DNA from: a virus
Taxonomy: Duplodnaviria > Caudoviricetes
Length of the DNA: 54,170 nt
IMG/VR virus record: IMGVR_UViG_3300030109_000164
Coordinates: 1 to 54,170 of that record
Strand: one strand, 5' to 3'
In this document: positions 4,914 to 34,785 of the stretch, in pieces
Numbering within the stretch: position 1 is the first letter of the stretch
Layout: each line of letters starts with the position of its first letter
The notes under the pieces: generated by a model
Seen by the model: the letters and a program-made list of their open reading frames with translations, nothing else
Databases searched by the model: none
Told to the model about the DNA's origin: nothing
Position numbers and translations under genes: made by a program

Positions 4914-6784
4914 GAGTAATCACAATTGACTTTGAAACATATTATAGTCGTGAGTATTCCTTATCAAAAATGACTACCGAATCCTACATCAGAGACCCTA
5001 GATTTGAGGTCATTGGTGTAGGTATAAAAGTAGATGACAACCCACCTGATTGGTATAGTGGAGATGATGTCGGAAGGTTCTTGAACTCGTTGGACTATTC
5101 TAAAGATGCTATCGTTGCACACAACACTGTGTTTGATGGTGCTATACTATCTTGGGTGTATGGTATCAAGCCTAAGTTTTGGTTTGATACTTTGTCTATG
5201 GCTAGACCATTTCATCATTCAACTGTGGGGGGTTCTCTTAAGGCTCTAGCAAACCATTACAATCTAGGGCAGAAAGGAGATGAAGTTATACAAGCACTTG
5301 GTAAAAATCGTAAAGACTTCTCACCACAAGAACTTGACAGGTATGCTGACTATTGTTTGCAAGATGTAAACTTAACTTACAAACTGTATAAAAAACTAAA
5401 GGTTAGAGTACCAGTATCCGAACTTATAGTTATAGACCAGACCATTCGTATGTATACTGAACCTAGTATTGTATTAGACCGAAAGGTTTTAGAACAACAT
5501 CTTCATAAGGTTAAAGAAGACAAGAAGAAGTTGATTGAATCTCTAGCACTTAAAGGTGTGAGTGAGGAGAGAGTTAAGAAGGCTTTGATGTCTAATCAAA
5601 TCTTTGCAAAGATACTAGAAACTGTTGGAGTTGAAGCACCTATGAAGATTAGTCTACGCACTGGTAAAGAAACATATGCCTTTGCTAAAACAGATAAAGA
5701 GTTTACTGCTTTGTTAGAACACCCTGACTCAAAGGTACAAGCTTTAGTCGCAGCACGACTTGGTACGAAGTCTACCATTGAAGAAACTAGAACAGAGAAT
5801 CTAATTAAAGTTTCAGACAGGGGTAGCTTACCTATATTATTAAACTACTATGGCGCACACACTGGTAGATTTAGTGGAGGTGATAAACTAAACTTACAAA
5901 ACTTACCACGCAACGGAGCAATACGAAAAGCTATAACTGTACCTAAAGGAAAGGTATTGGTTGCTTGTGATTCATCACAGATTGAAGCTCGTATGGTTGC
6001 GTACATCGCAGGACAAGATGATTTGGTACAATCATTTCGTGAAGGCAGAGATGTGTATAGTGAGTTTGCTACTGAAGTGTATGGTAAGCGAGTAACTAAA
6101 GCTGATAAGATAGAGAGATTTGTAGGTAAGACTTGTATACTTGGACTAGGTTATGGTATGGGTCATGTAAAGTTTAAAGCCACCCTTGCTCTTGGACAAG
6201 GAGGTATTGCTGTAGACATAGATGAGAACGAGGCAAGAAGAATTGTAAACTTATATAGACAGAAGAACCACAAGATAGTATCGCTATGGCATAGCTGTGG
6301 ACATGCTCTTACAGGTATGATTGCAGGGTCATCAGGTAATATATGTGAACTGTTACCTTATGATAAAGATGGAATAACTTTACCTAATGGACTAAAGATA
6401 AAGTACCACGCTTTACGCAATACATCTAATGGCTTTGAGTATATAGCTGACGCTAGAACTTTTCGTAAACTTGCACAGAAAAGAATACTAACTGGTGAAC
6501 AACAGAAGATTGATTGGACTAGAATTTATGGTGGTAAAGTTACAGAGAATGTGGTTCAAGCATTAGCTAGGATTGTAGTAGCAGAACAGATGGCATCTAT
6601 TGGACAATCATATCGTGTTGCTTTTCAGGTACATGATGAAGTGATTATCACGACCAGGGAAAATGATTTGATTAACGCACGACAACTTGTTGAGAAACAG
6701 ATGTCAACCGCACCACGCTGGGCAAAGGACTTGCCTGTTGCATGTGAATCAGGTGTGGGTTATAATTATGGAGACGCAAAGTAA
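4910..6784 (+). CDS. polA: DNA polymerase family A with 3'-5' exonuclease domain
   Basis: ExoI DFET, ExoII HNTVFD, ExoIII YCLQD, HTGRFSG, NLQNLP, motif A DSSQIEAR, motif B RFVGKTCILGLGYG, motif C VHDE. Confidence 0.95.
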   Translation: MRVITIDFETYYSREYSLSKMTTESYIRDPRFEVIGVGIKVDDNPPDWYSGDDVGRFLNSLDYSKDAIVAHNTVFDGAILSWVYGIKPKFWFDTLSMARPFHHSTVGGSLKALANHYNLGQKGDEVIQALGKNRKDFSPQELDRYADYCLQDVNLTYKLYKKLKVRVPVSELIVIDQTIRMYTEPSIVLDRKVLEQHLHKVKEDKKKLIESLALKGVSEERVKKALMSNQIFAKILETVGVEAPMKISLRTGKETYAFAKTDKEFTALLEHPDSKVQALVAARLGTKSTIEETRTENLIKVSDRGSLPILLNYYGAHTGRFSGGDKLNLQNLPRNGAIRKAITVPKGKVLVACDSSQIEARMVAYIAGQDDLVQSFREGRDVYSEFATEVYGKRVTKADKIERFVGKTCILGLGYGMGHVKFKATLALGQGGIAVDIDENEARRIVNLYRQKNHKIVSLWHSCGHALTGMIAGSSGNICELLPYDKDGITLPNGLKIKYHALRNTSNGFEYIADARTFRKLAQKRILTGEQQKIDWTRIYGGKVTENVVQALARIVVAEQMASIGQSYRVAFQVHDEVIITTRENDLINARQLVEKQMSTAPRWAKDLPVACESGVGYNYGDAK

Positions 6785-14811: not shown

Positions 14812-17800
14812 CTAGTCTAGTTCAATACCCCATATCTCTGCCATCTCATCAATAGCATCACGGGATTGTTTTGGTGCAGTTTTTCTAAACCTTGCTGTTG
14901 CAATTCGTCTTGCGGCTTTATAAGATTTGTTTGCAGATTGTGTGAAGTTTCTAAAATAAAACTCTGAGTCTCTACCTACATTTTTATTATACTCATCTAC
15001 AAACTTTAGTACCCTACGCATCTCACCTCTATTATTTTCTAGTTTAGCTTTTACATAAGCCTGAATGTAATGTGCTTTCATAGATTTTACATACGCTTGA
15101 TTCTGTCTGCTAGCTCTTATAATGTCGTTTTGTATTGATACAGAGTATGGATAAAAACCTAACATTCTCCAGAACACTGTCCACCCACCAACTTCTTTTG
15201 TTAATACTGTGCCGTCTGCTTTAGTTATTCTTCCATCTTCCATATACTGAAGGCTATCGAATATTCCTCGTACAGCAGCTGATGGTGAGTCTCTTAGTAT
15301 AGTTCTAAATTCTGTTGTGTCATCTTTAAGTCCTATAGTCTCAGCTCCATAACGAGCAAGTTGCGTTCCTGTAGCAAACAGTCCTGCCATTCCTGAATAC
15401 ACTGGCCCTAAGAAATTTTTTGCTTCTTGCCAGTATTCACCTGAATTATTCTTAGCTTGAAATATACCAGTCATTGGAATTAAATCACCAAAGCCTAGTC
15501 TTGTAGAAAATGTAGCTCCAAGTGTAGGGTCAAGTCCTCCTCTTAAAACAAATGGTGACGCACCAGGAATGAAAGCATCAATAAGTTTAGCTGCTTCCTG
15601 CTCAACAGTTCCCATTTTAATACCAAACTTCTGTGCTAGTGTTTCAATTAAATCAGATAGGTCGTCAGCAAATGGTAGTCCTGATAAACCTGCAAGGAGA
15701 AACAGTGTAGTTAGCATATAAATTCTACCGCTCTTTGGTAAACCTTTCATTAACTCGACAGTAATAATAGGAAATTGTTTATACATAAAAATATATTGTG
15801 CTAAGTTTCCTCTAGCCATTTCAGGTCTGTTATACATAGCATATTCACCCTGTGATGTGTTTACTGCTTTTGTTGCAAATGTTATTGCGTTTTGTTGTAC
15901 AACCACCTGTTCATCTTTCAGAAGTTTATCGTACGCTTTACCTTCAAAATTAGTAGCTAATATTCTTTCTCGTTCTAATCTGTATGCCGCAAGAAATGTA
16001 GCTCGTCTGTTAAGCTGTTCCGTGTAAGAGAACATATACATCCATCCTTTAATAGCACCATTAAAATTATTACTAGCTCTACCACCTCTTGATGTTCCGA
16101 CTAATGCATTAAACTGTGCAGCTTGTAACACACCTGCACCTGTGGCTTCTAATAGAGCTTCAGCTTCATCTTGCTCAAACCTGGATTGTGCTAGTTCATC
16201 TTGGTTATTAGCTAGTTCATATACAGTATCATAGTTAGATAAACTTCCTCCTTTTACATCATATGTAGCTCGTGCTATTGCTGCAGCAGCAGTGGCTAAA
16301 CCAAATCCTCCGCCATATCCTCTTTCTTTATTATAAGTGCCTAGGTATGGGATTGCATGTGATGGTAAAGATATTAAGTTGATTCCAGCAGTAGCGATTG
16401 AACCACCAAGCTGTAACAACACAGCAGTTAATTTTAGTCTTGAACCTATTTCACCAGACAATGCATCTTCTGTTGAGTCTACAATACTGGCAGAGTCAGA
16501 ATAAAATTGAAGTAGTTTATTAGCTTCTTCTCTATATCTTTCACCTCTACCTTGATTGCGTATATAATCTTTGTTAGTTAAAGTTTCACCTCTTTCTGCT
16601 TTTGCTAAACCTTCCCTAGTCTTTGCTTCGTTAAAACCAGGCTGTCCTATATCAGCGGAATGACTATAAGAATATGCATATTGTTCATACTCTTTTATAG
16701 CAGCTTCTTTTTGTTCTTGAGTACCTTCTCTTGTAGCTTTTTCAAGTTGTTCTAGTCTATCAGGGTTACCTCTAAAAAAACCATCGTTATCTATTATATC
16801 ATTAAGCTGCCAAGTAAAGGTAACTTTTCCTGCAATATGCCCCATAGTTTCTAGATGTTCTGCAACACTTCGTACAACATCCTGATCCCACCCTGGGTTA
16901 CCTGTTTTTTCTAAACTGCTTCTAGCTCTGTCACTAACACCTGATAACGCAGTAATAACTCTAGCTCTTTCATCTATGCTAAGTCCAATATCTAACTTAC
17001 TAACAATAGACATAAACTCTGTAAGATTTAATGTGTTGGCAAGAGGTTGTGACTGTCTAGCTTCTGCTACCTCTGGTCTAATAAACACTGTAACATCTAA
17101 TCCATCTACGTCTTTCATATTATATCTACTTTCTTTACCCTCATCATCTCTTACAAATTTTTGATTTAATTCTGTTTGTATATCTACTGCGTCTTGCTTT
17201 GCTTCAGTTTGAAAATATGGTAATGCTCCAGCAAAGTTTGCTTGTAACTTAACAGCTTTATTAGTTTTTACATTATATGCCTGCATACGAACTTGGTATT
17301 TACCTCGTCTAGTAAATGGAACATAACCTGTCATCATAGTTCGTTTAGCTTGAAACTCTGCATTTACAATCTGTTGGTCATGTGCAAATAAGTTTAAGAT
17401 AGTATCAGTTACTTCAAAAGCTTCATTCTTTTTATATTTTATATTAGCTAAATTTGGTAAAGAATTAATAATGTCAGCAAGTTCAGGTCTTTGAAATTCT
17501 TTAGTTTCTTTAAACGATGGATTACCATTTTCATCTATGCTTCTACCTGCCCAATCGTCTAATTTTTCAGGTTTCCACAATGCTCTGTTTATTTCTTTTA
17601 TAAATCTTTGAGCTTCTTTTATTTGTGCTTTATTAGGAGTTCCGTCAGCGTTAGGTTTTTTTCTCATTATGTTAGTGTACTCTTCAATAATCCTGTTAAA
17701 AATTTGTACATCTTCACTTGTAGGAAGTCCGTTCTGTCCTGATATAGTTTGAATTTTTTGCATAGCTCCGGTTTTTTGTCCTACGGCAGCAAGTAAATTT

Positions 17801-20800
17801 GCTTCAAGCACATCAATTGCAGCTTGGTTTACAGCATTTCTATTTTCTTCATATATTCTATAAGCATTATTAAATTCTTCTTCAGTTATAGCTACACCTT
17901 TTTCATCTACTCTAAATGATTTTGTTAAAGGTTCAGACCCATCGGCTAGTTGATAAGGAACACCTTCTTTAAATTGTTCTTTAGTAAGTTTACCTATCTT
18001 TTCTAATCTGGCACGATCTTTTTTATTCATTACTGGTGCATCACCTGTTTTATCTAACAAGTCTTCTGCTTGTATACTAGCTGGGGTTTCTGACCTAGCT
18101 TTAAACGCAGCACCAAAAGCAAGCATCTCACCTCCTATTTGCAGTTCTCTTGCTGATGGCCCTTTACCAAATCCAAACCAATGTGGAGTATGAGTATATG
18201 CTGTCATTCTTTCGTACTCAGACATTACTCTTCTAGTTTTACCAGCTGACTTCTGAAATATATTAAATATTTTTTGTAGTCCTTCGCTTCTTTGAGATTT
18301 GTTATTTAAAGTTTGTACGGTTTCAGCAACTCTTCCAAGATAATTGCTAGCACTTTCGCCTTTACCTTTAGGAACTTTCTTTAAAAATTCTTGGAACTTA
18401 TCAAAGCTACCAAATGCTCCTGCTTTTTTATTGAGGGCATAAGTATTTGCCCAGTTAGTAGCGTGTGTAGCTGATGTATTTTCCATAGAAAACCTGCCAT
18501 GCTCAGCTTCTGATTCTAATCTTTTTATATTTTCTGCTATTTGTTTTACACCAACAACACCTTGACCACCTGTCATTAAGTTCCTACGAGACTGTCTTAG
18601 GAAGTACCGCGTAATATCTGCATCACCTATGTTTATTAAATCACCCATACCTATTGTATCTAGTACAGCCTGAACTAAATTTTTAATACGATAAATTAAA
18701 CGACTATCAAATGATGCAGCTTTATCAGCAAGAACTTCTTCTACAGCTTCCATCATATCTATACCTGGGCGTGAAGTCATCATCTTGTCAACTTCATTTT
18801 TTACAAACCCGTCTGTTCTGTATATTTCACGGAAGATAGCATCCATTCTACTACGAGGCATAAAAGCACGAAAACCAAAATGCCCTAATGCCTCGTGAGC
18901 AACAACCAATCTTGCTTGTTCTTTTGACTTTATATAATCACTAAAAATTATAATTTGGTCACCAATAGAATACCCAGCTGCTTCTACTGTATCAAAATCT
19001 TTAAGTGGTCTACCAGCTGCTGCGCGTCTGTAAAGCTCTGGATTACTTTCAGCTAACTCTTGTACATTAGCGACTACAGTAACAGTTGGTTTTACTTTTA
19101 ATTTACTAAGAACTTTTTTAATAATAAGTTCTATATCACCTTTAGCAATAGGTTTTACAGGTTTACCATCTGCTCTACGAAATCTTCCTGAGTCATCAGT
19201 CTTTTGGTCAGCAGCATTTACTTGGTCATTAAGAGATTCTGTTGTGTTTGTTGTTGCTTCTTCGTTTCCTCTTCTAAGTCTGTCTCTACCTGTTGCTTCT
19301 CTTGCTGTTGGTTCAGCAGATGAATCAGGTATAAGTCTGCCATCAAACGTTTGTTTAATTTTTAATCTGCCTCCAGTAGTAAAATAATCTTTTAACTTAT
19401 GACCATTAGCCATAGTATAATTTTTTTCTTTAGCCATTAGTTTGGCATACTTCGTTTCCATTTCATTTGTAGCAGGATCAGCTTTACCCGGAAGGTCGCT
19501 CTTTATTGGAAAATTATTATATGCTGTATACGCACCGTTTTTAATAGAAACTTTTTCAAGATGAGAATTAATAAGCGCAGCTAACCCTTCAGCTTGGTCT
19601 TGTCGAAATTGTTTTCCTCTATCTGCTTGTCTTTCTCTACCAGACGCACCAAGTGCTAAATCATATAATCTTCTGAATTCATCTAGAGGTATACTTTCAC
19701 CAAGTAATTGTTTTTTACGCATTATATCTTGTAATCTTTCTGCAGTTTCCTCACCAAAAACTGTACCTTGTTCTTGTTCTTCTGTTGTTATGTTTGATGT
19801 AAGAACTTCTATTTGACTATCAGTCCACCATTTTGGCATGTTTGCAAGCGGAGCTTTAATTGAACTAAGAACATTTCTTTTTAAAGCATACTTTAACCAA
19901 TCTTTTTCTTTACCTTCTGTATTAGTTCCTTCTTGAACTTTAGCTGCACTATTGTTTATCGTTTTAATAAAAGCTGCGTCTAATACTTTTTGTTCTCTAG
20001 AAGTAAAGTTAGTAAAGTTAAGATAATTAATAGCTTGTGCTCTTAATGTATCTTCTGGTATGTTTTCAGCAAAAAATGCAAACTCCATTAGAATTTCACC
20101 AAGCATATAAGCAGCTCCAACATCTTTTTCAAATGCTCCCGGAGTTATACTTATAATATTAAAATCTGCAATAACAGAATTAAGTTCTTCTTGTTGAGTA
20201 AATCCTTGCAAAGAACTTAAACCAGCAGTACCACTGCCAAATTCTGTTTGTTCTTCTTTTTTAACTTCTGGTTTAGGTGGAATTCGTTCTAATACAAATT
20301 TAGCTTCTGCAGCTGTTAGTGCAGCTAAATCTCCGTTGACTGTATCTTCGGCAACTAAATTATTCCAAAGTGTTTTAAAGTTTGGTGGTAATCTGTCATA
20401 GCCTAAAGCACCACCTACAGTTAATGCATTCCACATTTCAATAGGTGTTCTATCTTTAACAGGTACAAAGATATTACTTATGCGAGCTTCTGATTCCTGA
20501 GCTTGTTTACGAATCCTGTCTTGCCTATCTTCCCTAGCTGCTCTTTTTTCTTCTGCGCTAGCAAACGCGATCGAGCGATTTGTCGCTTTTCTGATTTGCT
20601 CCTTAAGCCTATTCTCTTGGGCAGTTGTGAGTTGCTGGGCGTCTCCTCTTCGAATTGCTTGGCCAGCTCCGGTTTGTTCTTGTACAGCCACTTCTTCTGG
20701 GCTTCCGATTTGAATGGCATCTTGACTCCTTTCTATTTCTTCTGGTGTTGTTGGTGGTCTTACTTGTGTTCTTACTGTTGGTTCACTAGTTACTTGTTCC

Positions 20801-23364
20801 ATTTCTGCTATAAGATTATTTTGTTCTGTTAAATTGTTGTTATCTAAAGCATTTTGAAAATCAATAATGTAATCGTTTATTGTATTTTGAGGAACATTCT
20901 GTTGTTGCATTTTTGCTAAAAGCGGTGCAATAGCAATAGCTTTATTAGGAACAGGAATAGGAATTCTTTCTTGTCCTGCATCTTCTAACTGAGTTTGTGT
21001 AGGTTCTGTAGGCTCTGGTGTAACCACAGGTGCTGCTGCAGCTGGGCCTCTTTGTAATCTTCTCATTCCTGGTATCGTTAACTGTCTAGGTTGTCTAGCA
21101 GGTCTTTCTGGTATTGGAATTTGTGCTTGTCTAAGTTTAAATAGTCTTTGTTGTTCAGGAGTTAATTCGCTTTCAGCAATTAAACCTTCTAGTGCTTGGT
21201 TTACTCTTGTTTGATTTTCAAGTTCAACTTGCTGTTCATAATCTCTATATTGAATGTCAGCTATTTCTTCTTCTTGTCTAGCTTGCTCTAATCTTTGTTG
21301 TTCCATCTGTTGGATTTGTTGCTGTTGTGCTTGTTGTTGAGCTTCATTAAACTCTCTTTGTCTTTGTGCTAGCTCAGCTTCTTGTTGGTTAATCTGTCGT
21401 AGTTGTTGAATTTGATTTTGCTGTTGTTGAATTGTATTACTAGCTAGTAAAAGTTGTTGTCCTGCAGGTGTCTGTTGTATTTCCTGTGCACTCTGAGCAG
21501 GTGTATCAAATGGAATTGTTTGCTGTTCTAATGGAAGTGTTTGCTGTCCTGCTCTTTCTAACTCAGCTTGTGTAGGCTCTGGTGTAACTACAGGTGCTGG
21601 TTGCTGTGGTATTTCTGATAATTGATTTAAGTCACGAGCAGTAACTGGTTGTTGAGGTGGAAGTATAACTCCTTGTTGTCCTTCAGTTTGAGCTGGTAGC
21701 ACAGGTTGATTAGCCTGAACTACTGTATCTAATAACTCTCCTTGACGAGTCTGTTCACCTGCTACAAAGTTAGGAGGCCCAGATACTTGAGAGATAGGAG
21801 GAACAGCAGGAGGAATAACTGGAGTACCACCTGGTGGTAATTGATCTGGTGAAGGAGGAGGCTCAGGGCCTAAGACATCACCTTCGATACCAGGACTTGG
21901 TAATAATTTTTGGTCAGCTTTCGGTTCAGTTTTATTTAATATATCAGTAGCTTCGCCTCGTTTAAGAAGATTAGCACCACCACCTAGTGGGCCACCAATA
22001 GCAAAACCTGCTGCAAAAGCATTGATTAATCGTTTACCTACTTCAGCATCACCTAGTTGTCCTGTACCTGCAAGAAGAATACCTTCCTGTCCAACTTCAG
22101 TAAGACCTTCAAGTGTACCACCAACTGCTAAACCTTTACCTGCTCTTACAACTCTATTACCTTTTGTAAGAAGGTCAGGGCCAACACCAAAGATACGACC
22201 CGCTAGAAAAAATTCTGGAAGAGTTTCAAGTGCTGCGTATGGTATAGCACCAAAAGCTGCTGTAGCTCTATTACCTTCACCTGTATCTCGCACTTCACCA
22301 TAGATGTCACCTATACCCATAAGATAACTACCAGCTGTAGAAGTTATAGCAGCACCTCCTGCCATAGCTTGACGTCTACCTTGCTTAAGTGCTCCTCTAG
22401 CACCACCTAGTAATTCATCAGCTTCAAGTTTACGAAGCTGACTAGCAGTAGCTAATGACCCAGGTTTAGGTCTAAGAGCAGCTGCACCATACAGACCTGC
22501 ACCTTCACGAAGTAATTTTCTTTCACCTTTTGTAAGTTTTTGTCCGTTACTATATTTTGTGGCAGCTTTTAATAATTCTTTTTTTACTTTACCTCTACCA
22601 AATGTAGTAAGTACAGCACCACCTACAGCAGTAAAAGGGTTAGCACCACCACCTGCAACTGCACCTGCTCCAGCACCAGCAAGAGCTACCAGTATTGATT
22701 CTATTAAGTTTGGCCCTTGTTGTGCTAAGTTAGCAACAAACCAATCTATTGCACCATGTCCACCTTCGTTTTCAAAATAATCAATGCTAGTAAATTCTCT
22801 TTGAAATGGTTGGTTATAATATAATTCCTGTGCCGCACTGTCTACCCAGCCCTGTCCTAGTTCTTCTGCACCAAGAAACTGTGCAGCTCTACCAGCAAGT
22901 AACTTTAAATTACTACCACCTATCTCAAAATTTCTTGCCATAAGAGTACCCTTACCAGGGTCTTCTATATTTCTCATATAGTTTTTATAAGAATCAGGAG
23001 ATACGCTTTGCCAGTCTGGAGCATCAGGTACAGTAGTAGCTCTAGGCTTATCTAAGAATCCTTTACCTTCTGCATCTAACGCTGACTGTGAATCATCAGC
23101 ATCATACAGTGCACCATTAACAAACATTTTATTTTGAGAAGGACTAAACAATACAAGAGGCCCTGTCTTAGGAGGTTCGTTAGTAGATAACAAAGCAGAT
23201 TCTAGTGATTTAGCTTCTTGTTGTAGTTGTATATAGGGGTCAGCAGCATTTGCTCCAAGTTGTGATTTACCACCGATTGGATCAAAAGGATTACCTGTTC
23301 CAGGAGCACTGGTAGCATCGTAAAAGTTACTTGAAAAAGGTTGTAATCCTGCTTTCTTTACCAT
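14812..23364 (-). CDS. Giant internal virion/ejection protein (polyvalent-like, with zincin HExxGH and PLxRFG-like motifs)
   Basis: 2850 aa; last late gene; Gly/Ala membrane-like segments, Q/E/P low-complexity region, AHEALGH (~18880-18900), YVPFTRRGKY (~17300-17330). Confidence 0.8.
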   Translation of the reverse strand: MVKKAGLQPFSSNFYDATSAPGTGNPFDPIGGKSQLGANAADPYIQLQQEAKSLESALLSTNEPPKTGPLVLFSPSQNKMFVNGALYDADDSQSALDAEGKGFLDKPRATTVPDAPDWQSVSPDSYKNYMRNIEDPGKGTLMARNFEIGGSNLKLLAGRAAQFLGAEELGQGWVDSAAQELYYNQPFQREFTSIDYFENEGGHGAIDWFVANLAQQGPNLIESILVALAGAGAGAVAGGGANPFTAVGGAVLTTFGRGKVKKELLKAATKYSNGQKLTKGERKLLREGAGLYGAAALRPKPGSLATASQLRKLEADELLGGARGALKQGRRQAMAGGAAITSTAGSYLMGIGDIYGEVRDTGEGNRATAAFGAIPYAALETLPEFFLAGRIFGVGPDLLTKGNRVVRAGKGLAVGGTLEGLTEVGQEGILLAGTGQLGDAEVGKRLINAFAAGFAIGGPLGGGANLLKRGEATDILNKTEPKADQKLLPSPGIEGDVLGPEPPPSPDQLPPGGTPVIPPAVPPISQVSGPPNFVAGEQTRQGELLDTVVQANQPVLPAQTEGQQGVILPPQQPVTARDLNQLSEIPQQPAPVVTPEPTQAELERAGQQTLPLEQQTIPFDTPAQSAQEIQQTPAGQQLLLASNTIQQQQNQIQQLRQINQQEAELAQRQREFNEAQQQAQQQQIQQMEQQRLEQARQEEEIADIQYRDYEQQVELENQTRVNQALEGLIAESELTPEQQRLFKLRQAQIPIPERPARQPRQLTIPGMRRLQRGPAAAAPVVTPEPTEPTQTQLEDAGQERIPIPVPNKAIAIAPLLAKMQQQNVPQNTINDYIIDFQNALDNNNLTEQNNLIAEMEQVTSEPTVRTQVRPPTTPEEIERSQDAIQIGSPEEVAVQEQTGAGQAIRRGDAQQLTTAQENRLKEQIRKATNRSIAFASAEEKRAAREDRQDRIRKQAQESEARISNIFVPVKDRTPIEMWNALTVGGALGYDRLPPNFKTLWNNLVAEDTVNGDLAALTAAEAKFVLERIPPKPEVKKEEQTEFGSGTAGLSSLQGFTQQEELNSVIADFNIISITPGAFEKDVGAAYMLGEILMEFAFFAENIPEDTLRAQAINYLNFTNFTSREQKVLDAAFIKTINNSAAKVQEGTNTEGKEKDWLKYALKRNVLSSIKAPLANMPKWWTDSQIEVLTSNITTEEQEQGTVFGEETAERLQDIMRKKQLLGESIPLDEFRRLYDLALGASGRERQADRGKQFRQDQAEGLAALINSHLEKVSIKNGAYTAYNNFPIKSDLPGKADPATNEMETKYAKLMAKEKNYTMANGHKLKDYFTTGGRLKIKQTFDGRLIPDSSAEPTAREATGRDRLRRGNEEATTNTTESLNDQVNAADQKTDDSGRFRRADGKPVKPIAKGDIELIIKKVLSKLKVKPTVTVVANVQELAESNPELYRRAAAGRPLKDFDTVEAAGYSIGDQIIIFSDYIKSKEQARLVVAHEALGHFGFRAFMPRSRMDAIFREIYRTDGFVKNEVDKMMTSRPGIDMMEAVEEVLADKAASFDSRLIYRIKNLVQAVLDTIGMGDLINIGDADITRYFLRQSRRNLMTGGQGVVGVKQIAENIKRLESEAEHGRFSMENTSATHATNWANTYALNKKAGAFGSFDKFQEFLKKVPKGKGESASNYLGRVAETVQTLNNKSQRSEGLQKIFNIFQKSAGKTRRVMSEYERMTAYTHTPHWFGFGKGPSARELQIGGEMLAFGAAFKARSETPASIQAEDLLDKTGDAPVMNKKDRARLEKIGKLTKEQFKEGVPYQLADGSEPLTKSFRVDEKGVAITEEEFNNAYRIYEENRNAVNQAAIDVLEANLLAAVGQKTGAMQKIQTISGQNGLPTSEDVQIFNRIIEEYTNIMRKKPNADGTPNKAQIKEAQRFIKEINRALWKPEKLDDWAGRSIDENGNPSFKETKEFQRPELADIINSLPNLANIKYKKNEAFEVTDTILNLFAHDQQIVNAEFQAKRTMMTGYVPFTRRGKYQVRMQAYNVKTNKAVKLQANFAGALPYFQTEAKQDAVDIQTELNQKFVRDDEGKESRYNMKDVDGLDVTVFIRPEVAEARQSQPLANTLNLTEFMSIVSKLDIGLSIDERARVITALSGVSDRARSSLEKTGNPGWDQDVVRSVAEHLETMGHIAGKVTFTWQLNDIIDNDGFFRGNPDRLEQLEKATREGTQEQKEAAIKEYEQYAYSYSHSADIGQPGFNEAKTREGLAKAERGETLTNKDYIRNQGRGERYREEANKLLQFYSDSASIVDSTEDALSGEIGSRLKLTAVLLQLGGSIATAGINLISLPSHAIPYLGTYNKERGYGGGFGLATAAAAIARATYDVKGGSLSNYDTVYELANNQDELAQSRFEQDEAEALLEATGAGVLQAAQFNALVGTSRGGRASNNFNGAIKGWMYMFSYTEQLNRRATFLAAYRLERERILATNFEGKAYDKLLKDEQVVVQQNAITFATKAVNTSQGEYAMYNRPEMARGNLAQYIFMYKQFPIITVELMKGLPKSGRIYMLTTLFLLAGLSGLPFADDLSDLIETLAQKFGIKMGTVEQEAAKLIDAFIPGASPFVLRGGLDPTLGATFSTRLGFGDLIPMTGIFQAKNNSGEYWQEAKNFLGPVYSGMAGLFATGTQLARYGAETIGLKDDTTEFRTILRDSPSAAVRGIFDSLQYMEDGRITKADGTVLTKEVGGWTVFWRMLGFYPYSVSIQNDIIRASRQNQAYVKSMKAHYIQAYVKAKLENNRGEMRRVLKFVDEYNKNVGRDSEFYFRNFTQSANKSYKAARRIATARFRKTAPKQSRDAIDEMAEIWGIELD
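20478..20720 (-). CDS. Nested basic protein (MPFKS... type) in the +1 frame of the giant gene
   Basis: 80-aa same-strand ORF, SD AAGGAG 5 nt before ATG, protein-like N-terminus MPFKSEAQKKWLYKNKPELAKQFEEETP. Confidence 0.7.
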   Translation of the reverse strand: MPFKSEAQKKWLYKNKPELAKQFEEETPSNSQLPKRIGLRSKSEKRQIARSRLLAQKKKEQLGKIGKTGFVNKLRNQKLA

Positions 23365-28359: not shown

Positions 28360-28719
28360 TTATAGCCCTTTCATTTGTTGAATTAGTAAATTAAGTGCAG
28401 CTCTTGTCTCAGCTACATCGGTAGCTAAAGTCTGCACATCAAGTACAAGTTTTTGAAAATCATCTAAAGATGCAACATTTTGACCGCTTATAGCAAAACC
28501 TGTACCTTTTGCAGTTACCTGTACTAATTTTTGTGCACCTAATGGATTTGTTGTAATTTGACCCTGTGTAATAGCTTTACTTGCAGTATCAATTTCACCA
28601 CGTAGTCCAGTTAGTAATTCTACATTTTCTTTAACTGTAGCTATAAGTATAGTTTGGTAGTCTGTAAACCCTCCTTGTGGTACTGCTGGTACAGTTGTAA
28701 ATCTATTGTTAACGCTCAT
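28360..28719 (-). CDS. Hypothetical structural protein (coiled-coil C-terminus)
   Basis: 119 aa; overlaps the stop of the upstream tail gene. Confidence 0.65.
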   Translation of the reverse strand: MSVNNRFTTVPAVPQGGFTDYQTILIATVKENVELLTGLRGEIDTASKAITQGQITTNPLGAQKLVQVTAKGTGFAISGQNVASLDDFQKLVLDVQTLATDVAETRAALNLLIQQMKGL

Positions 28720-31118
28720 GCTGTCCTCAATCCATATGGAGTTTCACCTATATGTATTGCTCGTATTCTTGCCGAACCCGAAACTCCTATTTCAAATGTA
28801 TCACTTCTATATCCGCTTGGCAATCTAAATACATCGCTAGAACTTACTGTCCCTTGAAATATTAACTGTTTATCAACAAACAATTTAAAAGTAACTGGTA
28901 ATACTCCTGAAATTTCTAATTGAAACTGCGTTTGTGCATCTGCATTTATTGCATATGAATTTAATGTACCTGAATTTTCTACTCTACTTCCAGAATCTGT
29001 ATAGTCAGTTGGCCCGTTAACTGTACCAAGTTGTTGGCTTTTAGTCCATATTACAGCATTACTAGTAGGTACACTATTATTGTAAGCTATAATATTTTCT
29101 GTTTCTGTAGCTGATGTATCAAAATCTGCAATGACTCTAGCAGCTCCAAGATTCATAAAATCTTTGGTAATAATAGCTTTTGACTTCCATTCTAATGGAG
29201 AAAGAATTTGGTCTTTATTATCCCATTCATATAAATTACCTAAGTTATCTCCTATATAATACATTACACCAGTTTGATAATCAGTACATGCTGCAGTAAA
29301 AGTATAGTTTATACTTACAAGAAGTCCTCCTACAGTATCATCTCTTTCAAATATAAGCGAAGAAGCTGAATGAGAACCAAAGTATTTACCATTGTAGTAA
29401 TGTCCAATAAGAGTAGCAGGGTCAAGAGCTGCATTCCAAGTATCCCAATCGTGCACTAACTTAGTTACGATGTCTGTACCTTGTGAAGGAGCATGACTAG
29501 CAAGCCCTCCGTGAGTAGCCCATAAAACAGCATACCCCATATTAACTACAGATTTTTTAGAAAGACATGGATATAAACTATCAACACGAGCAGACGACAT
29601 AGTAGCAGGGTCATTACCTGATACCTGATATGGATATTCTTTTGTAAGCACTAATATAAATCCTTGTATAGGTTCTATTGCTACAATGTCTGAATCAAAA
29701 GTCATTCTAAATCGTTCAGGCCATGCATGTGGTTTATCAGGAAATGAAAAACATAATTGATTATCAAAAAATCCAACAAGTATATTATTGTGAGCTGCAC
29801 GAATACCTTTCATACCTGTAGGTGGAGGATCGTTATCTTCAGAATCTAATAATCTAGATAGACCTGACACTAAATAATTATCTGTAAAGTTAAAACTACT
29901 ATCACCCCAATATATTGCTGTTTGACTTAATGACTCAGCTACATCGTGAAACACAGTACCGTTAGTATCAGCAGTTTCAGAAATAGCATTACCACTATCG
30001 CTAAATGTAAACGAATACTTATCAACAATAGAAGCTACAGTAAATGTACCATTCATACTGCCACTATCTGTAGTCATACCAGATAATTTAAATCTATCAT
30101 CTACAATAAAATTATGAGGGTGTGCTAAAGTTAAAGTAACTACACTACCAACTCGTTTTACTTTAGTAGTAGTTGTTGGAAACCATAATGTTCTTAATAA
30201 AAAATACTCTGTAGCTGCTGCAGAAACAACAGTTCTATATAACCTTACACCTCGTACAAAGTTTAAAGTTGGTGAACTAGGTTTTTGTTGTGGTATATTA
30301 CTAACTGTTACAGTTTGTCCTTCTTTAATATACACTTCAGCAGATGGTAAAGATGGTATAGACTCTTCATCCCAAGGTGTAATCCATGTATAGACATATG
30401 TTCTAATCTGTGTGTTACCTGCCATATCAGCACGACCAGTAGTATTTGCTGTTTTTGCAACTTGGTCTCCAGGACTAAAGTATGAAAAGTCAGTAGTGTT
30501 AAGAACAGTAATTTCTACATTAGTAGCATTAAAAGCTTTAGCTTCATCAGATGTACCAAAATCTCTAACAGTAACAATATTACCTGAGCGTAAGTTATGA
30601 GTTGTTCCTCCATAAAATGTTGCAGTATTACCACTATCTCTTTCATAGTGTGTAGCACTTACAACAGAAAATGATACTGCTGCAGTATTTAAAGTAGTTG
30701 TAGGTAAAGGTAATCCAAGGTCATAATATCCGTTTGTTACTGGGTATGGAGCACTTCCATTAGTAGCTAAATCATAGTTAGATACTTTGGGTGTGCCATC
30801 ACCTGTATAATAAAATCTTTGCTCAGTATCTTCTGTTGATGTAGTAGTTGTCCAAGGAGAAGAAGCAGTAGCAATATCTACATCATTGAGATAAGTAAGA
30901 AATACATTAGCATTATTAGTAGGATTAGTAAGTTTATATAATGTTTGAATTGTACCTGTCCTTCCAATGTTTTCAACTAGCTTTGGAGTTCTATAAGGTA
31001 TAAGGTCACCAGAATACAACTTAACATTATAAGCTGTTTGAGCTGCTCCATCAGGTAATAACTCATCAGATATTTTTGGAGCTTCACCTAAAAACTTTTG
31101 TAGTTTTACTGAACCCAT
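28716..31118 (-). CDS. Tail nozzle/stabilisation protein (tubular protein B or P22 gp10-like)
   Basis: 800 aa, beta-rich; FLGEAPK, RTYVYTW, LCFSFPDKPHAWP, PCLSKKSVV; podovirus gene order. Confidence 0.65.
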   Translation of the reverse strand: MGSVKLQKFLGEAPKISDELLPDGAAQTAYNVKLYSGDLIPYRTPKLVENIGRTGTIQTLYKLTNPTNNANVFLTYLNDVDIATASSPWTTTTSTEDTEQRFYYTGDGTPKVSNYDLATNGSAPYPVTNGYYDLGLPLPTTTLNTAAVSFSVVSATHYERDSGNTATFYGGTTHNLRSGNIVTVRDFGTSDEAKAFNATNVEITVLNTTDFSYFSPGDQVAKTANTTGRADMAGNTQIRTYVYTWITPWDEESIPSLPSAEVYIKEGQTVTVSNIPQQKPSSPTLNFVRGVRLYRTVVSAAATEYFLLRTLWFPTTTTKVKRVGSVVTLTLAHPHNFIVDDRFKLSGMTTDSGSMNGTFTVASIVDKYSFTFSDSGNAISETADTNGTVFHDVAESLSQTAIYWGDSSFNFTDNYLVSGLSRLLDSEDNDPPPTGMKGIRAAHNNILVGFFDNQLCFSFPDKPHAWPERFRMTFDSDIVAIEPIQGFILVLTKEYPYQVSGNDPATMSSARVDSLYPCLSKKSVVNMGYAVLWATHGGLASHAPSQGTDIVTKLVHDWDTWNAALDPATLIGHYYNGKYFGSHSASSLIFERDDTVGGLLVSINYTFTAACTDYQTGVMYYIGDNLGNLYEWDNKDQILSPLEWKSKAIITKDFMNLGAARVIADFDTSATETENIIAYNNSVPTSNAVIWTKSQQLGTVNGPTDYTDSGSRVENSGTLNSYAINADAQTQFQLEISGVLPVTFKLFVDKQLIFQGTVSSSDVFRLPSGYRSDTFEIGVSGSARIRAIHIGETPYGLRTA

Positions 31119-34158: not shown

Positions 34159-34785
34159 TTATCGTATATACGTTTTAACATTTGTATCATCTGTCCACCT
34201 ATTAACTCTTGCTACTGTTTTCATAGTGCCATCTGAATTTAACTCATTAGTATGCAATGCTTTAAAAGCATCCATATCACTAGCATTAGTAATTGCTGTT
34301 TCTATATCACCACAATCTTTTCTTATTGCAGTAACATAAGTTTTTACTGCATCAGGTATGGCTTTGCTACTGTCATATATACTTCGTTCTACTAGCCAGC
34401 TAAATCTAGCTATGTAATTGTTGGCTCTTGTCTTTGCTGTTTCTAATGCATAAGTTTTTAAACCTTTTGTTACTAACTGTTCACCTTCAAACATAATAGC
34501 TTTTCCATCACTGTCTACCTCTTTTACATCATCAAGTTTTTTATCTACTTTAGTATAACTTGTAGTCACTTTATCTGTATCAAATTTGTAAATTGGTTGA
34601 GAAGTTATTTCGTATTTATCATCTCCTGTTACTCCAGGTATTACTTCATATATTCCAATTTTGTTTAATTCAGACCAAGACCAAGATGTAAATATAGTTC
34701 TTGGGTGTCGAACATTATTTATAGTAATTGAAGTTGGATATTTTATTATTTGTGTTACCTTTTTATCTTCTACTATTGCATACAT
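34159..34785 (-). CDS. Tail-fibre-associated protein (assembly chaperone-like)
   Basis: Follows the fibre genes; HPRTIF...WSWSEL..IGIY and W.VER...IP..V..Y..AIR motifs. Confidence 0.55.
   Translation of the reverse strand: MYAIVEDKKVTQIIKYPTSITINNVRHPRTIFTSWSWSELNKIGIYEVIPGVTGDDKYEITSQPIYKFDTDKVTTSYTKVDKKLDDVKEVDSDGKAIMFEGEQLVTKGLKTYALETAKTRANNYIARFSWLVERSIYDSSKAIPDAVKTYVTAIRKDCGDIETAITNASDMDAFKALHTNELNSDGTMKTVARVNRWTDDTNVKTYIR

What the first reader, a model, noticed from the sequence alone, without database searches (positions are those of the whole stretch)
20478..20720. Basic microprotein gene nested in the +1 frame of the 2850-aa ejection protein
Seen: a same-strand 80-codon ORF inside the giant gene, with AGAAAGGAG-TCAAG-ATG (SD 5 nt from the start). 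It encodes MPFKSEAQKKWLYKNKPELAKQFEEETP...LPKRIG, about 22 K/R in 80 aa. The outer frame reads DAIQIGSPEEVAVQEQTGAGQAIRRGDAQ in a low-complexity linker, with unusual codons (CGA TCG ATC GCG) and one of the genome's rare GATC sites, as expected under dual coding. Unverified recall: MPFKS.AQ..W...N.P..AK..E.ETP is a recurrent small phage protein, and DAIQ...EEV..Q strings recur in giant phage proteins. Inference: a conserved overprinted gene producing a basic partner (DNA-condensing, chaperone or packaging factor) from the ejection-protein mRNA, missed by gene callers. Caveat: +1 frames of E/Q-rich genes are Lys-rich by default.
Basis: partly seen in the sequence, partly recalled or inferred. 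Interest (0 to 1): 0.85.

Follow-up and report, generated by a model that had tools for sequence, protein, structure and literature searches.

The report
Conserved microgene nested in giant phage gene
A small, very basic protein gene really is hidden in a second reading frame of a giant phage virion-protein gene, it is kept intact across dozens of related marine phages, and its family of uncharacterised phage microproteins also turns up nested inside other virion genes.

Summary
On the minus strand, window 20720-20478 is an 80-codon ATG ORF preceded by AAGGAG. It lies in the +1 frame of the 2850-codon gene 23364-14812.

It is a real gene, not a composition artefact. It is intact, in the same frame and place, in 31 of 32 assessable related contigs; only one very distant giant-gene relative lacks it. 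Within the overlap, substitutions follow the inner frame's codon phase. The inner protein is more conserved than the outer one (54% against 37% mean identity; 104 of 105 pairs). Its first ~40 residues match a large, unnamed family (3490 cluster representatives) of stand-alone phage microproteins and N-terminal modules.

It therefore did not arise by overprinting. An older small gene became embedded, and the giant protein reads through it as a low-confidence linker.

The same microgene is also nested in the +1 frame of a 1710-aa gene and in 76 of 80 copies of a ~400-aa gene lying between portal and a virion structural protein gene.

Translation and function are unproven. My best guess is a head-morphogenesis or virion-associated basic protein made from an internal ribosome-binding site. 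The arrangement resembles Rz/Rz1, but this is not a spanin.

The parts
20478..20720 (-). Nested microgene: 80 codons plus stop, +1 frame of the giant gene; basic protein P0001, pI 10.6
   Evidence: Intact in 31 of 32 assessable related contigs. Codon-phase signature of the inner frame.
20726..20731 (-). Shine-Dalgarno AAGGAG, 5 nt upstream of the nested ATG
   Evidence: It is one of only two strong-SD+ATG sites in the 8553-nt gene. An SD-like GGAG/GAGG is printed upstream of the start in the related loci. Other genes of this genome start the same way.
20613..20720 (-). Codons 1-36: conserved 'MPFKS' module, predicted helical hairpin (helices 6-15 and 17-26) followed by the TP...LP stretch
   Evidence: Alignments A1 and A3. 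Profile hit E 2.7e-28. 3490 family representatives. AlphaFold2 pLDDT 87-95 over residues 1-40.
20496..20597 (-). Codons 42-75: long basic helix specific to the giant-gene-nested form (SEKRQ.AR ... NKLRNQ)
   Evidence: Conserved among nested copies. The inner-frame phase pattern persists here (0.395/0.345/0.544 and 0.423/0.350/0.522 at inner positions 1/2/3).
14812..23364 (-). Container: 2850-codon giant virion-protein gene (P0002)
   Evidence: phrog_11358 E 3.5e-43. Homologues of 2470-3059 codons in related contigs.
20476..20721 (-). Outer codons 882-963: the giant protein's reading of the overlap, a low-confidence linker just before a folded domain
   Evidence: pLDDT below 50 for segment residues 1-91 (outer 822-912), about 48-61 up to about residue 142, and 73-89 from about 145 on. 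The region upstream of the overlap cannot be aligned between homologues.
14929..16452 (-). PLxRFG domain (NF032893 'tail-700') of the giant protein, residues 2305-2812
   Evidence: E 1.5e-48, 165.8 bits against a cut-off of 100. tblastn to giant proteins of F116-like phages, about 26% identity.

Best explanation
Window 20720-20478 (minus strand) is a genuine protein-coding gene embedded out of frame (+1) in the giant PLxRFG-domain virion-protein gene of a complete ~54-kb marine podovirus-like phage.

Shown: the ORF, its ATG and an SD-like motif are conserved; purifying selection acts mainly on the inner frame; and its N-terminal ~40 residues belong to a very large family of phage microproteins and N-terminal modules.

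Inferred: ribosomes initiate independently at the internal AAGGAG-N5-ATG on the late giant-gene mRNA and make an 80-aa protein of pI 10.6. That protein has a small helical-hairpin module and a long basic helix. The giant protein reads the same DNA as a flexible linker.

Evolutionary inference: a pre-existing free-standing microgene was captured into the giant gene, by insertion or by read-through fusion. It was not born there de novo.

Functional inference, at roughly 0.3: the microprotein acts in head morphogenesis, packaging or the virion interior. The hairpin would dock onto a conserved partner and the basic tail would bind nucleic acid.
For: Conservation of the ORF:
- 11 of 11 loci found with the peptide carry an intact 80-90-codon ORF inside the giant ORF.
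- Of 27 loci found with the giant protein's N-terminus, 21 of 21 that reach the site carry it in the +1 frame; the other 6 are cut short by contig ends.
- Of 14 further loci, 9 carry it, 4 are cut, and 1 very distant relative lacks it.
- This holds down to 34-35% identity in the giant protein's best-conserved domain.

Selection on the inner frame:
- Across 6 non-redundant genes, diversity at outer codon positions 1/2/3 in the overlap is 0.476/0.302/0.277. Position 3 is the most variable everywhere else (0.41-0.52).
- The lowest outer third-position diversity among 241 sliding windows lies at codons 878-917 (0.129).
- Across 15 genes, diversity at inner positions 1/2/3 is 0.360/0.283/0.478. Mean amino-acid identity is 0.544 for the inner protein and 0.368 for the outer on the same nucleotides. 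The inner is higher in 104 of 105 pairs.

Openness of the frame:
- Resampling synonymous codons gives P(+1 frame open) of 0.001-0.28 per gene, yet it is open in 15 of 15. It is the longest alternative-frame run in 13 of 15.

Protein homology:
- A profile of the first 45 residues finds 3490 representatives at E<=1e-3 and 463 at E<=1e-10.
- By my count from that table, the match starts at residues 1-3 in about 129 of the 150 listed.
- 726 proteins of 24-79 aa match at E<=1e-5.
- Free-standing copies include L016 (45 aa) and an unannotated 36-aa ORF in Synechococcus phage S-CBS2.

Other points:
- AlphaFold2 gives a confident small fold, mean pLDDT 83.7.
- The nested copy is the only copy of the module in this complete genome.
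- The start context matches other genes of the genome.

Context behind the functional guess:
- Free-standing and nested copies sit beside or inside head and virion genes. These include TerL, portal, virion structural proteins, phrog_32588 giants and PLxRFG giants.
Against: There is no direct evidence of translation: no ribosome profiling and no peptides.

Two seawater RNA-library contig sets cover only other parts of the giant gene (21503-22287 and 18217-18338), not the nested ORF. They cannot show transcription in any case.

Function is unsupported by any database. Pfam gave 0 hits for P0001, and no consistent family for the 68 members scanned. NCBIfam gave none. Foldseek found no PDB match. 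PHROGs gave only weak matches to phrog_1375, a family of unknown function.

Neighbours of free-standing copies are heterogeneous: 239 proteins fall into 176 clusters. The head-gene association therefore rests on the annotated minority.

The related contigs are not phylogenetically independent, so counts overstate the number of independent observations.

One distant giant-gene relative (L081) and 4 of 80 scaffold-position genes lack the microgene, so it is not indispensable everywhere.
Confidence: 0.85

Rival explanations
1. Chance ORF. The +1 frame of an E/Q/A-rich linker is Lys-rich and poor in stops, so an 80-codon ORF with a fortuitous SD appears without being a gene.
For: In some homologues the frame has a fair chance of being open given the outer protein (P up to 0.28 in L040 and 0.16 in L042). 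Other long +1 runs of 83-133 codons occur elsewhere in some homologues. In free-standing module genes both alternative frames are often stop-free (25 and 32 of 65).
Against: The ORF is open in 15 of 15 genes, with per-gene P as low as 0.001. ATG and an SD-like motif are retained in every assessable close or moderately distant relative. The codon-phase pattern is that of the inner frame, and the inner protein is more conserved than the outer in 104 of 105 pairs. There is strong profile homology to thousands of free-standing proteins.
Confidence: 0.02
2. The inner frame is decoded, but by programmed +1 ribosomal frameshifting rather than as a separate gene. That would give a truncated ~960-aa giant-protein isoform ending in the basic peptide.
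For: The ORF is on the same strand and in the +1 frame. The inner frame is open for a few codons upstream of the ATG (84 stop-free codons against an 80-codon ORF). Phage structural genes are known to use frameshifting (general knowledge, recalled).
Against: The ATG at module position 1 or 2 and an SD-like motif 5-13 nt upstream are conserved, while the upstream outer sequence cannot be aligned. Free-standing homologues start exactly at this Met-Pro-Phe. The upstream extension of the inner frame is short and variable, with stops 3-41 codons upstream. I did not look for a slippery site.
Confidence: 0.05
3. The conservation reflects a nucleic-acid element, such as an RNA structure, a packaging signal or a regulatory site, rather than a second protein.
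For: There is a local GC peak (0.50 against about 0.33 around it) and strong suppression of outer-frame third-position change. A consensus-level terminator-like hairpin was found on the opposite strand at 20573-20588.
Against: The substitutions have three-base periodicity in the inner frame (inner position 3 > 1 > 2) along the whole 80 codons. Amino-acid-level homology persists where nucleotide identity is gone, and extends to proteins in unrelated genomes. A confident protein fold is predicted.
Confidence: 0.03
4. A real gene whose role is host takeover or counter-defence rather than virion assembly. The module would be a portable host-factor-binding or nucleic-acid-binding tag, which is why it is also fused to SAM lyase, NUDIX and cupin domains.
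For: Family members carry the module in front of a cupin (E 3.5e-15), a NUDIX domain (1.1e-7) and an S-adenosylmethionine lyase domain (7.3e-8). In Prochlorococcus phage P-RSP2 the weak match lies among small genes near the left end of the genome.
Against: Nested copies all sit in late virion genes. Free-standing copies whose neighbours could be annotated lie next to TerL, portal, tail-fibre-like or virion structural genes.
Confidence: 0.2

Closest known systems
Lambda Rz/Rz1 two-component spanin genes (embedded, overlapped and separated architectures)
   Same: A small gene lies wholly embedded in the +1 frame of a larger same-strand phage gene and has its own start. Gene callers often miss it. 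The same gene pair or family also occurs in non-embedded arrangements in other phages, which argues that embedding evolved from separate genes. (PMC6139136, passages read: 182 embedded, 228 overlapped and 118 separated of 528 systems; 196 o-spanins not identified.)
   Different: This is not a spanin. P0001 has no Cys, so no lipobox, and no signal peptide (sequence). The container is a 2850-aa PLxRFG virion protein in the structural module, not a lysis-cassette membrane protein. The microgene is found in at least three unrelated containers. No physical interaction between inner and outer products is shown.
Classical overprinted genes of small phages and viruses (for example phiX174 E in D and B in A)
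   Same: Two proteins are read from one DNA stretch in different frames. One reading is ordered and the other tolerant or disordered. (phiX174 examples recalled; review PMC8227390 seen as abstract only.)
   Different: Overprinting creates the inner gene de novo. Here the inner gene belongs to a family of 3490 cluster representatives that mostly stand alone, and it is the more constrained frame. The outer linker is therefore the newcomer.
phrog_1375 (PHROGs family of unknown function, 70-position profile)
   Same: Family members match it over the module (E 5e-5 to 2e-3 for P0009, P0010, P0026, P0043, P0047 and P0088). P0001 matches weakly (E 0.086).
   Different: The matches are weak, the PHROG has no function, and there is no Pfam or NCBIfam model. 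The 80-aa nested form has an extra conserved basic helix.
PLxRFG-domain giant proteins of podoviruses (NF032893; F116-like Pseudomonas phages; the 'polyvalent protein' class)
   Same: The container's C-terminal ~500 residues match NF032893 above its cut-off, match phrog_11358, and match giant proteins of F116-like phages. A DarB-like PHROG hits the related L123 giant.
   Different: Nothing I saw reports an embedded gene in these proteins. My searches of the paper library for 'PLxRFG' (5 papers) and for overlapping or nested phage genes gave no such report. The polyvalent-protein paper PMC5512222 was seen only as a listing.
Capsid-targeting sequences and internal proteins of T4-like phages (functional analogy only, recalled)
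   Same: A short N-terminal tag on otherwise unrelated small basic proteins and enzymes, encoded among head genes.
   Different: There is no sequence or structural relationship and no evidence of packaging or cleavage here. This is purely a hypothesis for the module's role.

Membership tests
Out-of-frame embedded phage gene (Rz1-in-Rz type architecture) | Inner ORF wholly inside a longer same-strand ORF, in a different frame | tested here: met
   20720-20478 lies inside 23364-14812, offset 2644 nt, +1 frame.
Out-of-frame embedded phage gene (Rz1-in-Rz type architecture) | Both frames kept open across homologues, and the inner frame under purifying selection | tested here: met
   31 of 32 assessable contigs. 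Inner-frame codon-phase pattern, and inner identity above outer in 104 of 105 pairs. Shuffle test.
Out-of-frame embedded phage gene (Rz1-in-Rz type architecture) | Own translation initiation site that is actually used | not testable with these tools
   SD plus ATG are present and conserved. No ribosome-profiling or peptide data were available. RNA contigs do not cover the site.
Two-component spanin (o-spanin / i-spanin) | Inner product is an outer-membrane lipoprotein (signal peptide plus lipobox Cys); outer product has an N-terminal transmembrane domain; the pair sits in the lysis cassette | tested here: not met
   P0001 contains no Cys and starts MPFKSEAQKK. The container is a PLxRFG giant in the structural module.
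'MPFKS' N-terminal module family (unnamed; overlaps phrog_1375) | M-P-[FY]-K-S-x-x-Q ... N15, P17, A20, T27-P28, L33-P34 at the extreme N-terminus; a two-helix hairpin | tested here: met
   Invariant and near-invariant columns in A1 and A3. Profile E 2.7e-28 on the window. Helices 6-15 and 17-26 at pLDDT above 87.
Pfam PF11450 DUF3008 | Match to the Pfam model | tested here: not met
   The lead came only from a weak Atlas row (score 0.82, 14% of members). None of the 68 family members scanned hit it, even at E<=10.
PLxRFG domain-containing giant protein (NF032893), for the container | Match to NF032893 above its curated cut-off | tested here: met
   165.8 bits against a cut-off of 100, E 1.5e-48, residues 2305-2812.
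Internal virion / ejection protein, for the container | Presence in the virion and ejection into the host | not testable with these tools
   Only position and annotation by analogy are available. It lies two genes downstream of a phrog_511 'internal virion protein' gene (28716-31118). F116-like homologues are labelled 'structural protein' in some records.
Programmed ribosomal frameshift product | Slippery site and stimulatory element at the frame junction; no independent start needed | not tested
   I did not scan for slippery sequences. The conserved ATG and SD, and free-standing homologues that start at this Met, argue against it.
De novo overprinted gene | Inner ORF restricted to the clade of its container, with no free-standing homologues | tested here: not met
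   3490 representatives. In a sample of 78 viral loci, 70 module ORFs were 60 codons or shorter, and most were not inside another gene.

The most novel reading that the evidence does not exclude
The 'MPFKS' microgene is a portable head- or packaging-associated module that has repeatedly become embedded in disordered linkers of virion genes: PLxRFG giants, phrog_32588 giants, and the gene between portal and a virion structural protein gene. Embedding would happen either because the microgene behaves as an insertable coding cassette whose alternative frames are intrinsically stop-free, or because embedding couples its synthesis to that of its virion partner. The same ~40-residue hairpin, placed at the N-terminus of enzymes such as SAM lyase, NUDIX and cupin proteins, would then be a general tag that loads cargo into capsids for co-injection. 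That would make it a widespread and so far unrecognised capsid-targeting system of environmental phages.
Probability: 0.15. Interest if true: 0.85.

Novelty: new variant of a known kind. Interest (0 to 1): 0.68.

Why it matters
Embedded out-of-frame genes are known in phages, but few are documented beyond lysis cassettes and tiny genomes. This one sits in the largest gene of an abundant group of marine phages and is missed by gene callers.

It also belongs to one of the larger uncharacterised phage microprotein families: 3490 representatives of 50%-identity clusters, with no Pfam or NCBIfam model.

The direction of evolution is unusual and can be tested. An older small gene was captured, and the big protein's linker is the derived reading.

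The same microgene is nested in at least three unrelated virion genes and has natural presence/absence variants (76 of 80 in one gene family). That offers a ready comparative system for studying how dual coding arises and what it costs. It also gives a concrete candidate for a new head-associated factor or targeting tag.

On the practical side, annotation pipelines and metaproteomic databases for marine viromes are missing this protein.

Tried and rejected
Family and structure searches:
- Pfam and NCBIfam on the peptide and on family members gave nothing usable.
- The DUF3008 lead from the protein Atlas was not supported. The first Atlas call gave only weak rows for unnamed viral proteins of about 60 aa.
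- A PDB sequence search with the family profile gave only two chance-level hits, E 0.17-0.21.
- Foldseek against PDB gave 0 hits. BFVD returned only uncharacterised small phage proteins.

Searches of isolated phages:
- blastn of the region found nothing.
- tblastn with the peptide gave 5 weak hits at E of 0.03 or worse. These nevertheless led to real small ORFs.
- tblastn with a typical free-standing member (P0023) found nothing at E<=1e-3. The family is therefore essentially unsampled among cultured phages.

Complex prediction:
- Window portal (21-row alignment) with the nested protein (68-row alignment): 'no answer', score 0.00 against a mark of 0.32; controls were not run. This is neither for nor against binding. 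I chose the portal on context alone.

Expression:
- One study's two seawater RNA libraries (contigs only) hold about 5% of the sampled words of the giant gene.
- Laid on the gene, their contigs cover 21503-22287 and 18217-18338 at mostly 99% identity or more, and do not cover the nested ORF.
- Contigs cannot show transcription, starts or levels, so I draw no conclusion from them.

Promoters and neighbours:
- The promoter scan found one weak minus-strand match (9 of 12) at 20843-20815, about 95 nt upstream of the nested ATG. The region held 4 sites against 1.6 +/- 1.3 expected. I do not claim an internal promoter.
- Neighbour clustering of 67 free-standing loci showed no dominant partner gene (176 clusters from 239 proteins).
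- I tested whether the recurrent +1 nesting reflects a frame-specific absence of stops in the module. It does not: the +1-type frame is open in 25 of 65 and the +2-type in 32 of 65.

Apparent containers I rejected:
- In GC-rich loci (L093, L104/L105, L152 and others) and on the antisense strand, the apparent containers look like spurious long ORFs or adjacent genes.
- In L104/L105 the microgene lies just upstream of, and overlaps the start of, TerL.

Literature:
- 'MPFKS' gave nothing relevant; the one phage hit is a chance C-terminal string.
- 'PLxRFG' gave 5 papers, none about overlaps.
- The overlapping, nested and embedded gene searches gave no report of this gene pair.

Rows dropped before counts:
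- One search used 6 of 8 full-length genes (L011 is identical to L009, and L015 is 98% identical to L014).
- Searches used the window plus 14 loci. They left out contigs fetched twice under other locus ids, loci cut by contig ends, and the loci, which were fetched later.
- One search used 78 of the 80 loci (L084 and L085 belong to the window's own clade).
- One search used 67 of those 78 (the nested ones were left out).
- One search used 65 of 68 (one non-ATG start or ORFs over 70 codons excluded).
Full report
**What is there.** The finding's coordinates hold an 80-codon ORF on the minus strand, from the ATG at 20720 to the stop ending at 20478. It lies inside a 2850-codon minus-strand ORF, 23364-14812. 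The inner ATG is 2644 nt into the outer ORF, so the inner gene is in the +1 frame and covers outer codons 882-963. AAGGAG ends 5 nt before the ATG. The product has 16 K and 6 R, no D, and a pI of 10.6. It is the only other ORF of at least 60 aa on that strand within the giant gene. GC rises to 0.48-0.50 over the ORF, against 0.37 for the gene and the genome. GATC is depleted genome-wide (29 sites against 126 +/- 12 expected), and one site falls in the ORF.

**The genome and the container.** The window is a whole virus record of 54,170 bp, rated 100% complete. It has a DNA polymerase, a helicase and a primase-helicase on the plus strand. On the minus strand it has a late block with TerL, portal, a tail-fibre-like protein and a phrog_511 internal virion protein, followed by the giant gene. 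The giant protein's C-terminal ~500 residues match NF032893, 'PLxRFG domain-containing protein', above its cut-off (E 1.5e-48). They also match phrog_11358 and, at about 26% identity, giant proteins of F116-like Pseudomonas phages. 'Ejection protein' is a reasonable label by analogy but was not tested.

**Is the nested ORF a gene? Conservation.** I collected relatives of the giant gene from viral contigs in three ways.
- With the peptide itself, 11 of 11 full-length matches are intact 80-90-codon ORFs with ATG and an SD-like motif, inside the giant ORF.
- With an alignment of the giant protein's N-terminal 480 residues, I got 27 loci. Six are cut by contig ends before the site. The other 21 of 21 carry the ORF in the +1 frame, at 79-98 codons.
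- With a broader alignment I got 14 further loci. Nine carry it and 4 are cut. One (L081) lacks it; this is a very distant 2124-codon relative that shares only an N-terminal motif and the C-terminal domain.

In distinct contigs that makes 31 of 32 assessable, plus the window. The relatives reach down to 34-35% identity in the giant protein's best-conserved domain. An ATG stands at module position 1 or 2 in every case.

A still more distant GC-rich giant (L123, 58% GC) is collinear with the window's protein in weak BLASTP segments. It carries a 53-codon copy at the equivalent place, just before the shared 'RTP.E.W.AL' motif.

**Is it a gene? Selection.** In a codon alignment of 6 non-redundant full-length genes, the third codon position of the outer frame is the most variable everywhere (0.41-0.52) except in the overlap. 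There, outer positions 1/2/3 show 0.476/0.302/0.277. The lowest outer third-position diversity among 241 sliding windows of the whole gene falls at codons 878-917 (0.129).

Re-phased to the inner frame in 15 genes, diversity is 0.360/0.283/0.478. That is the classical position 3 > 1 > 2 coding signature, and it holds in all three sections of the ORF. On the very same nucleotides the inner protein is 54.4% identical on average and the outer 36.8%. The inner is the better conserved in 104 of 105 pairs.

Holding each outer protein fixed and resampling synonymous codons leaves the +1 frame open with probability 0.001-0.28, yet it is open in 15 of 15. It is the longest alternative-frame run in 13 of 15. 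These sequences share ancestry, so the counts are not independent trials. Even so, the periodicity and the inner-over-outer asymmetry are hard to obtain without selection on the inner protein.

**Is it a gene? Homology.** A profile of the first 45 residues, searched against 1.84 billion cluster representatives, finds 3490 proteins at E<=1e-3 and 463 at E<=1e-10. Among the 150 listed, the match begins at residues 1-3 in about 129 by my count. Lengths range from 50 to 707 aa: 71 are 100 aa or shorter, 41 are 101-200 aa, and 38 are longer. A second database holds 726 proteins of 24-79 aa at E<=1e-5. All are unnamed or 'hypothetical', and none has a Pfam domain.

Free-standing copies include a 45-aa gene in L016 among tail-fibre-like genes. 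There is also an unannotated 36-aa ORF between gp045 and gp046 of Synechococcus phage S-CBS2 and an annotated 39-aa CDS in phage 023Pt_psg01.

Longer members carry the module in front of a cupin, a NUDIX domain, an S-adenosylmethionine-lyase domain and other tails. No Pfam or NCBIfam model covers the module. PHROGs offers only weak matches to phrog_1375, of unknown function.

AlphaFold2 with a 68-row alignment gives a confident small fold (mean pLDDT 83.7). It has helices 6-15 and 17-26, an extended TP...LP stretch, and a long basic helix at 42-75. Foldseek finds nothing in the PDB and only uncharacterised small phage proteins in BFVD.

The nested gene is the only copy of the module in this complete genome. 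Gene callers have not recorded it. A search of 5.8 billion predicted proteins returned two relatives of similar length, and neither was the window's copy or that of a close relative.

**What the giant protein does with this DNA.** Upstream of the overlap the homologues cannot be aligned. The only conserved island is the block (D/N)A(V/I)Q..S.E.V, which is simply the outer reading of ATG-CCx-TTC-AAA-TCx.... An AlphaFold2 model of outer residues 822-1160 has pLDDT below 50 up to residue 912 and about 48-61 through the rest of the overlap. It rises to 73-89 directly after the overlap ends. The microgene thus sits at the end of a long low-complexity linker, immediately before a folded domain.

**How it most likely works.**
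- Shown: a conserved ORF with ATG and an SD-like motif, under purifying selection in its own frame, homologous to free-standing proteins.
- Inferred: independent initiation on the late giant-gene mRNA. The start context (aaaggagtcaagATG) looks like other gene starts in this genome, for example aaaggaggtctaaATG and taaggagttaaatATG. It is one of only two strong-SD+ATG sites in 8553 nt.
- Inferred: the evolutionary direction. The family is far wider than the giant-gene clade and mostly free-standing, a distant giant lacks it, and the inner frame is the more constrained. So the small gene is the older one and was captured, with the giant protein reading through it. This is the reverse of overprinting.

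**Function.** I can offer only a ranked guess. Nested copies lie in late virion genes. Free-standing copies with annotatable neighbours lie next to TerL, portal, tail-fibre-like genes, virion structural genes or phrog_32588 giants. The minimal proteins are a hairpin plus a Lys/Arg tail. I therefore favour a head-morphogenesis or virion-interior role, in which the hairpin docks on a conserved partner and the basic tail binds nucleic acid (about 0.3). A host-directed role comes second (about 0.2).

The neighbours are otherwise heterogeneous (176 clusters from 239 proteins). A portal-microprotein complex prediction gave no answer (see Tried and rejected).

**An unexpected extension.** The same microgene is nested elsewhere. 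I examined 78 further viral loci carrying the module, the best 80 of 360 confirmed with 2 from the window's own clade removed. In 70 of them the module ORF is 60 codons or shorter. Real-looking same-strand containers are of three kinds.
- L087: a 1710-aa protein matching phrog_32588 (E 4e-250), with the module at codon 539.
- L123: the GC-rich PLxRFG-type giant described above.
- Seven loci with a 374-408-aa gene carrying the module at codons 37-60.

All are in the +1 frame, and the outer reading is again (D/N)AVQE.S.E.V.

The ~400-aa gene lies between portal (phrog_6547) and a virion structural protein (phrog_13704), downstream of TerL. That is the position where scaffolding genes usually sit. 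Its conserved C-terminal part matches a 'structural protein' of Flavobacterium 'elemo' phages.

I then examined 80 homologues of this gene, the best 80 of 523. A +1-frame ORF of at least 30 codons starting MPF... is present in 76 of them. Of these, 55 are canonical and 21 belong to two divergent variants. Three genes lack the segment altogether and are about 15-20 codons shorter. One holds a decayed remnant. Their upstream regions are A-rich rather than SD-like (2 of 76).

In another lineage the module gene lies directly after a phrog_32588 giant instead of inside it (L115). The family thus shows embedded and separate architectures, as spanins do.

I found no frame-specific reason for the constant +1 nesting. 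In free-standing genes both alternative frames are stop-free over the module at similar rates, 25 and 32 of 65.

**Comparison with what is known.** The architecture is that of lambda Rz/Rz1. There too, embedded, overlapped and separated forms coexist and many inner genes go unannotated (PMC6139136, passages). But this is not a spanin: it has no Cys or lipobox, no signal peptide, a different container and a different module. It is also not an overprinted de novo gene. I found no paper describing this gene pair or this family.

**Verdict.** The gene is real by comparative criteria (about 0.9), and internal initiation is likely. The 'overprinted' origin is rejected in favour of capture of an older microgene, and the function remains open. 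It is a new variant of a known kind (embedded phage genes). Two things give it added interest: the microgene belongs to a very large uncharacterised family, and it is repeatedly embedded in virion genes of abundant marine phages.

Noticed in passing
L087:4001-4186; L123:4001-4159; L139, L148, L149, L151, L154, L159, L161; L164-L243: The same MPFKS microgene is nested in the +1 frame of other virion genes. These are a 1710-aa phrog_32588 protein, a GC-rich PLxRFG-type giant, and a ~400-aa gene between portal and a phrog_13704 virion structural protein gene. In that last family 76 of 80 homologues carry it, 3 lack it and 1 holds a decayed remnant.
   Followed up: partly
L167-L238 (for example L169, L173, L191): Two divergent variants of the nested microprotein occur in the scaffold-position gene: an 'MPFKHKRQMIAMLLSK...' type (15 loci) and an '...AACYAQNNPKW.CKKW...' type (6 loci). 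Both escaped the module HMM at E<=1e-3.
   Followed up: partly
window 18124-18126 (minus strand; giant-gene nt 5238, codon 1747): This is the only other strong SD (AGGAGG, 4-nt spacing) followed by ATG inside the giant gene, and it is in frame. It could give an internally initiated 1104-aa C-terminal product.
   Followed up: no
window 20503-20832 (plus strand): A 109-codon TTG-initiated ORF lies antisense to the nested gene region. It is probably a by-product of the stop-poor, dual-coded sequence.
   Followed up: no
whole window: GATC is about four-fold depleted: 29 sites against 126 +/- 12 expected from dinucleotide-preserving shuffles. This suggests avoidance of a GATC-targeting host system.
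   Followed up: no
L023 nt ~6709, L027 ~6634, L029 ~6529, L039 ~6586 of the giant gene; L040 and L042 nt ~319: Further long stop-free +1 runs (83-133 codons) occur at shared positions within sub-clades of the giant gene. They are absent from the window (its next-longest runs are 57 and 52 codons).
   Followed up: no
L001:6001-6111 (Synechococcus phage S-CBS2, record 34225-34335): An unannotated 36-aa member of the family lies between gp045 and gp046, in a run of small, very basic proteins. Its ATG overlaps the stop of gp045.
   Followed up: partly
L104:3472-3603 and L105:4001-4132: In a 63%-GC phage, a 43-aa family member lies immediately upstream of the terminase large subunit gene and overlaps its start.
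   Followed up: partly
P0015, P0047, P0048, P0009 (family members from the representative library): The ~40-aa module is fused N-terminally to a cupin, an S-adenosylmethionine-lyase domain, a NUDIX domain and a weak P-loop kinase-like region. In P0074 and P0095 it lies internally, at residues 133-172.
   Followed up: partly
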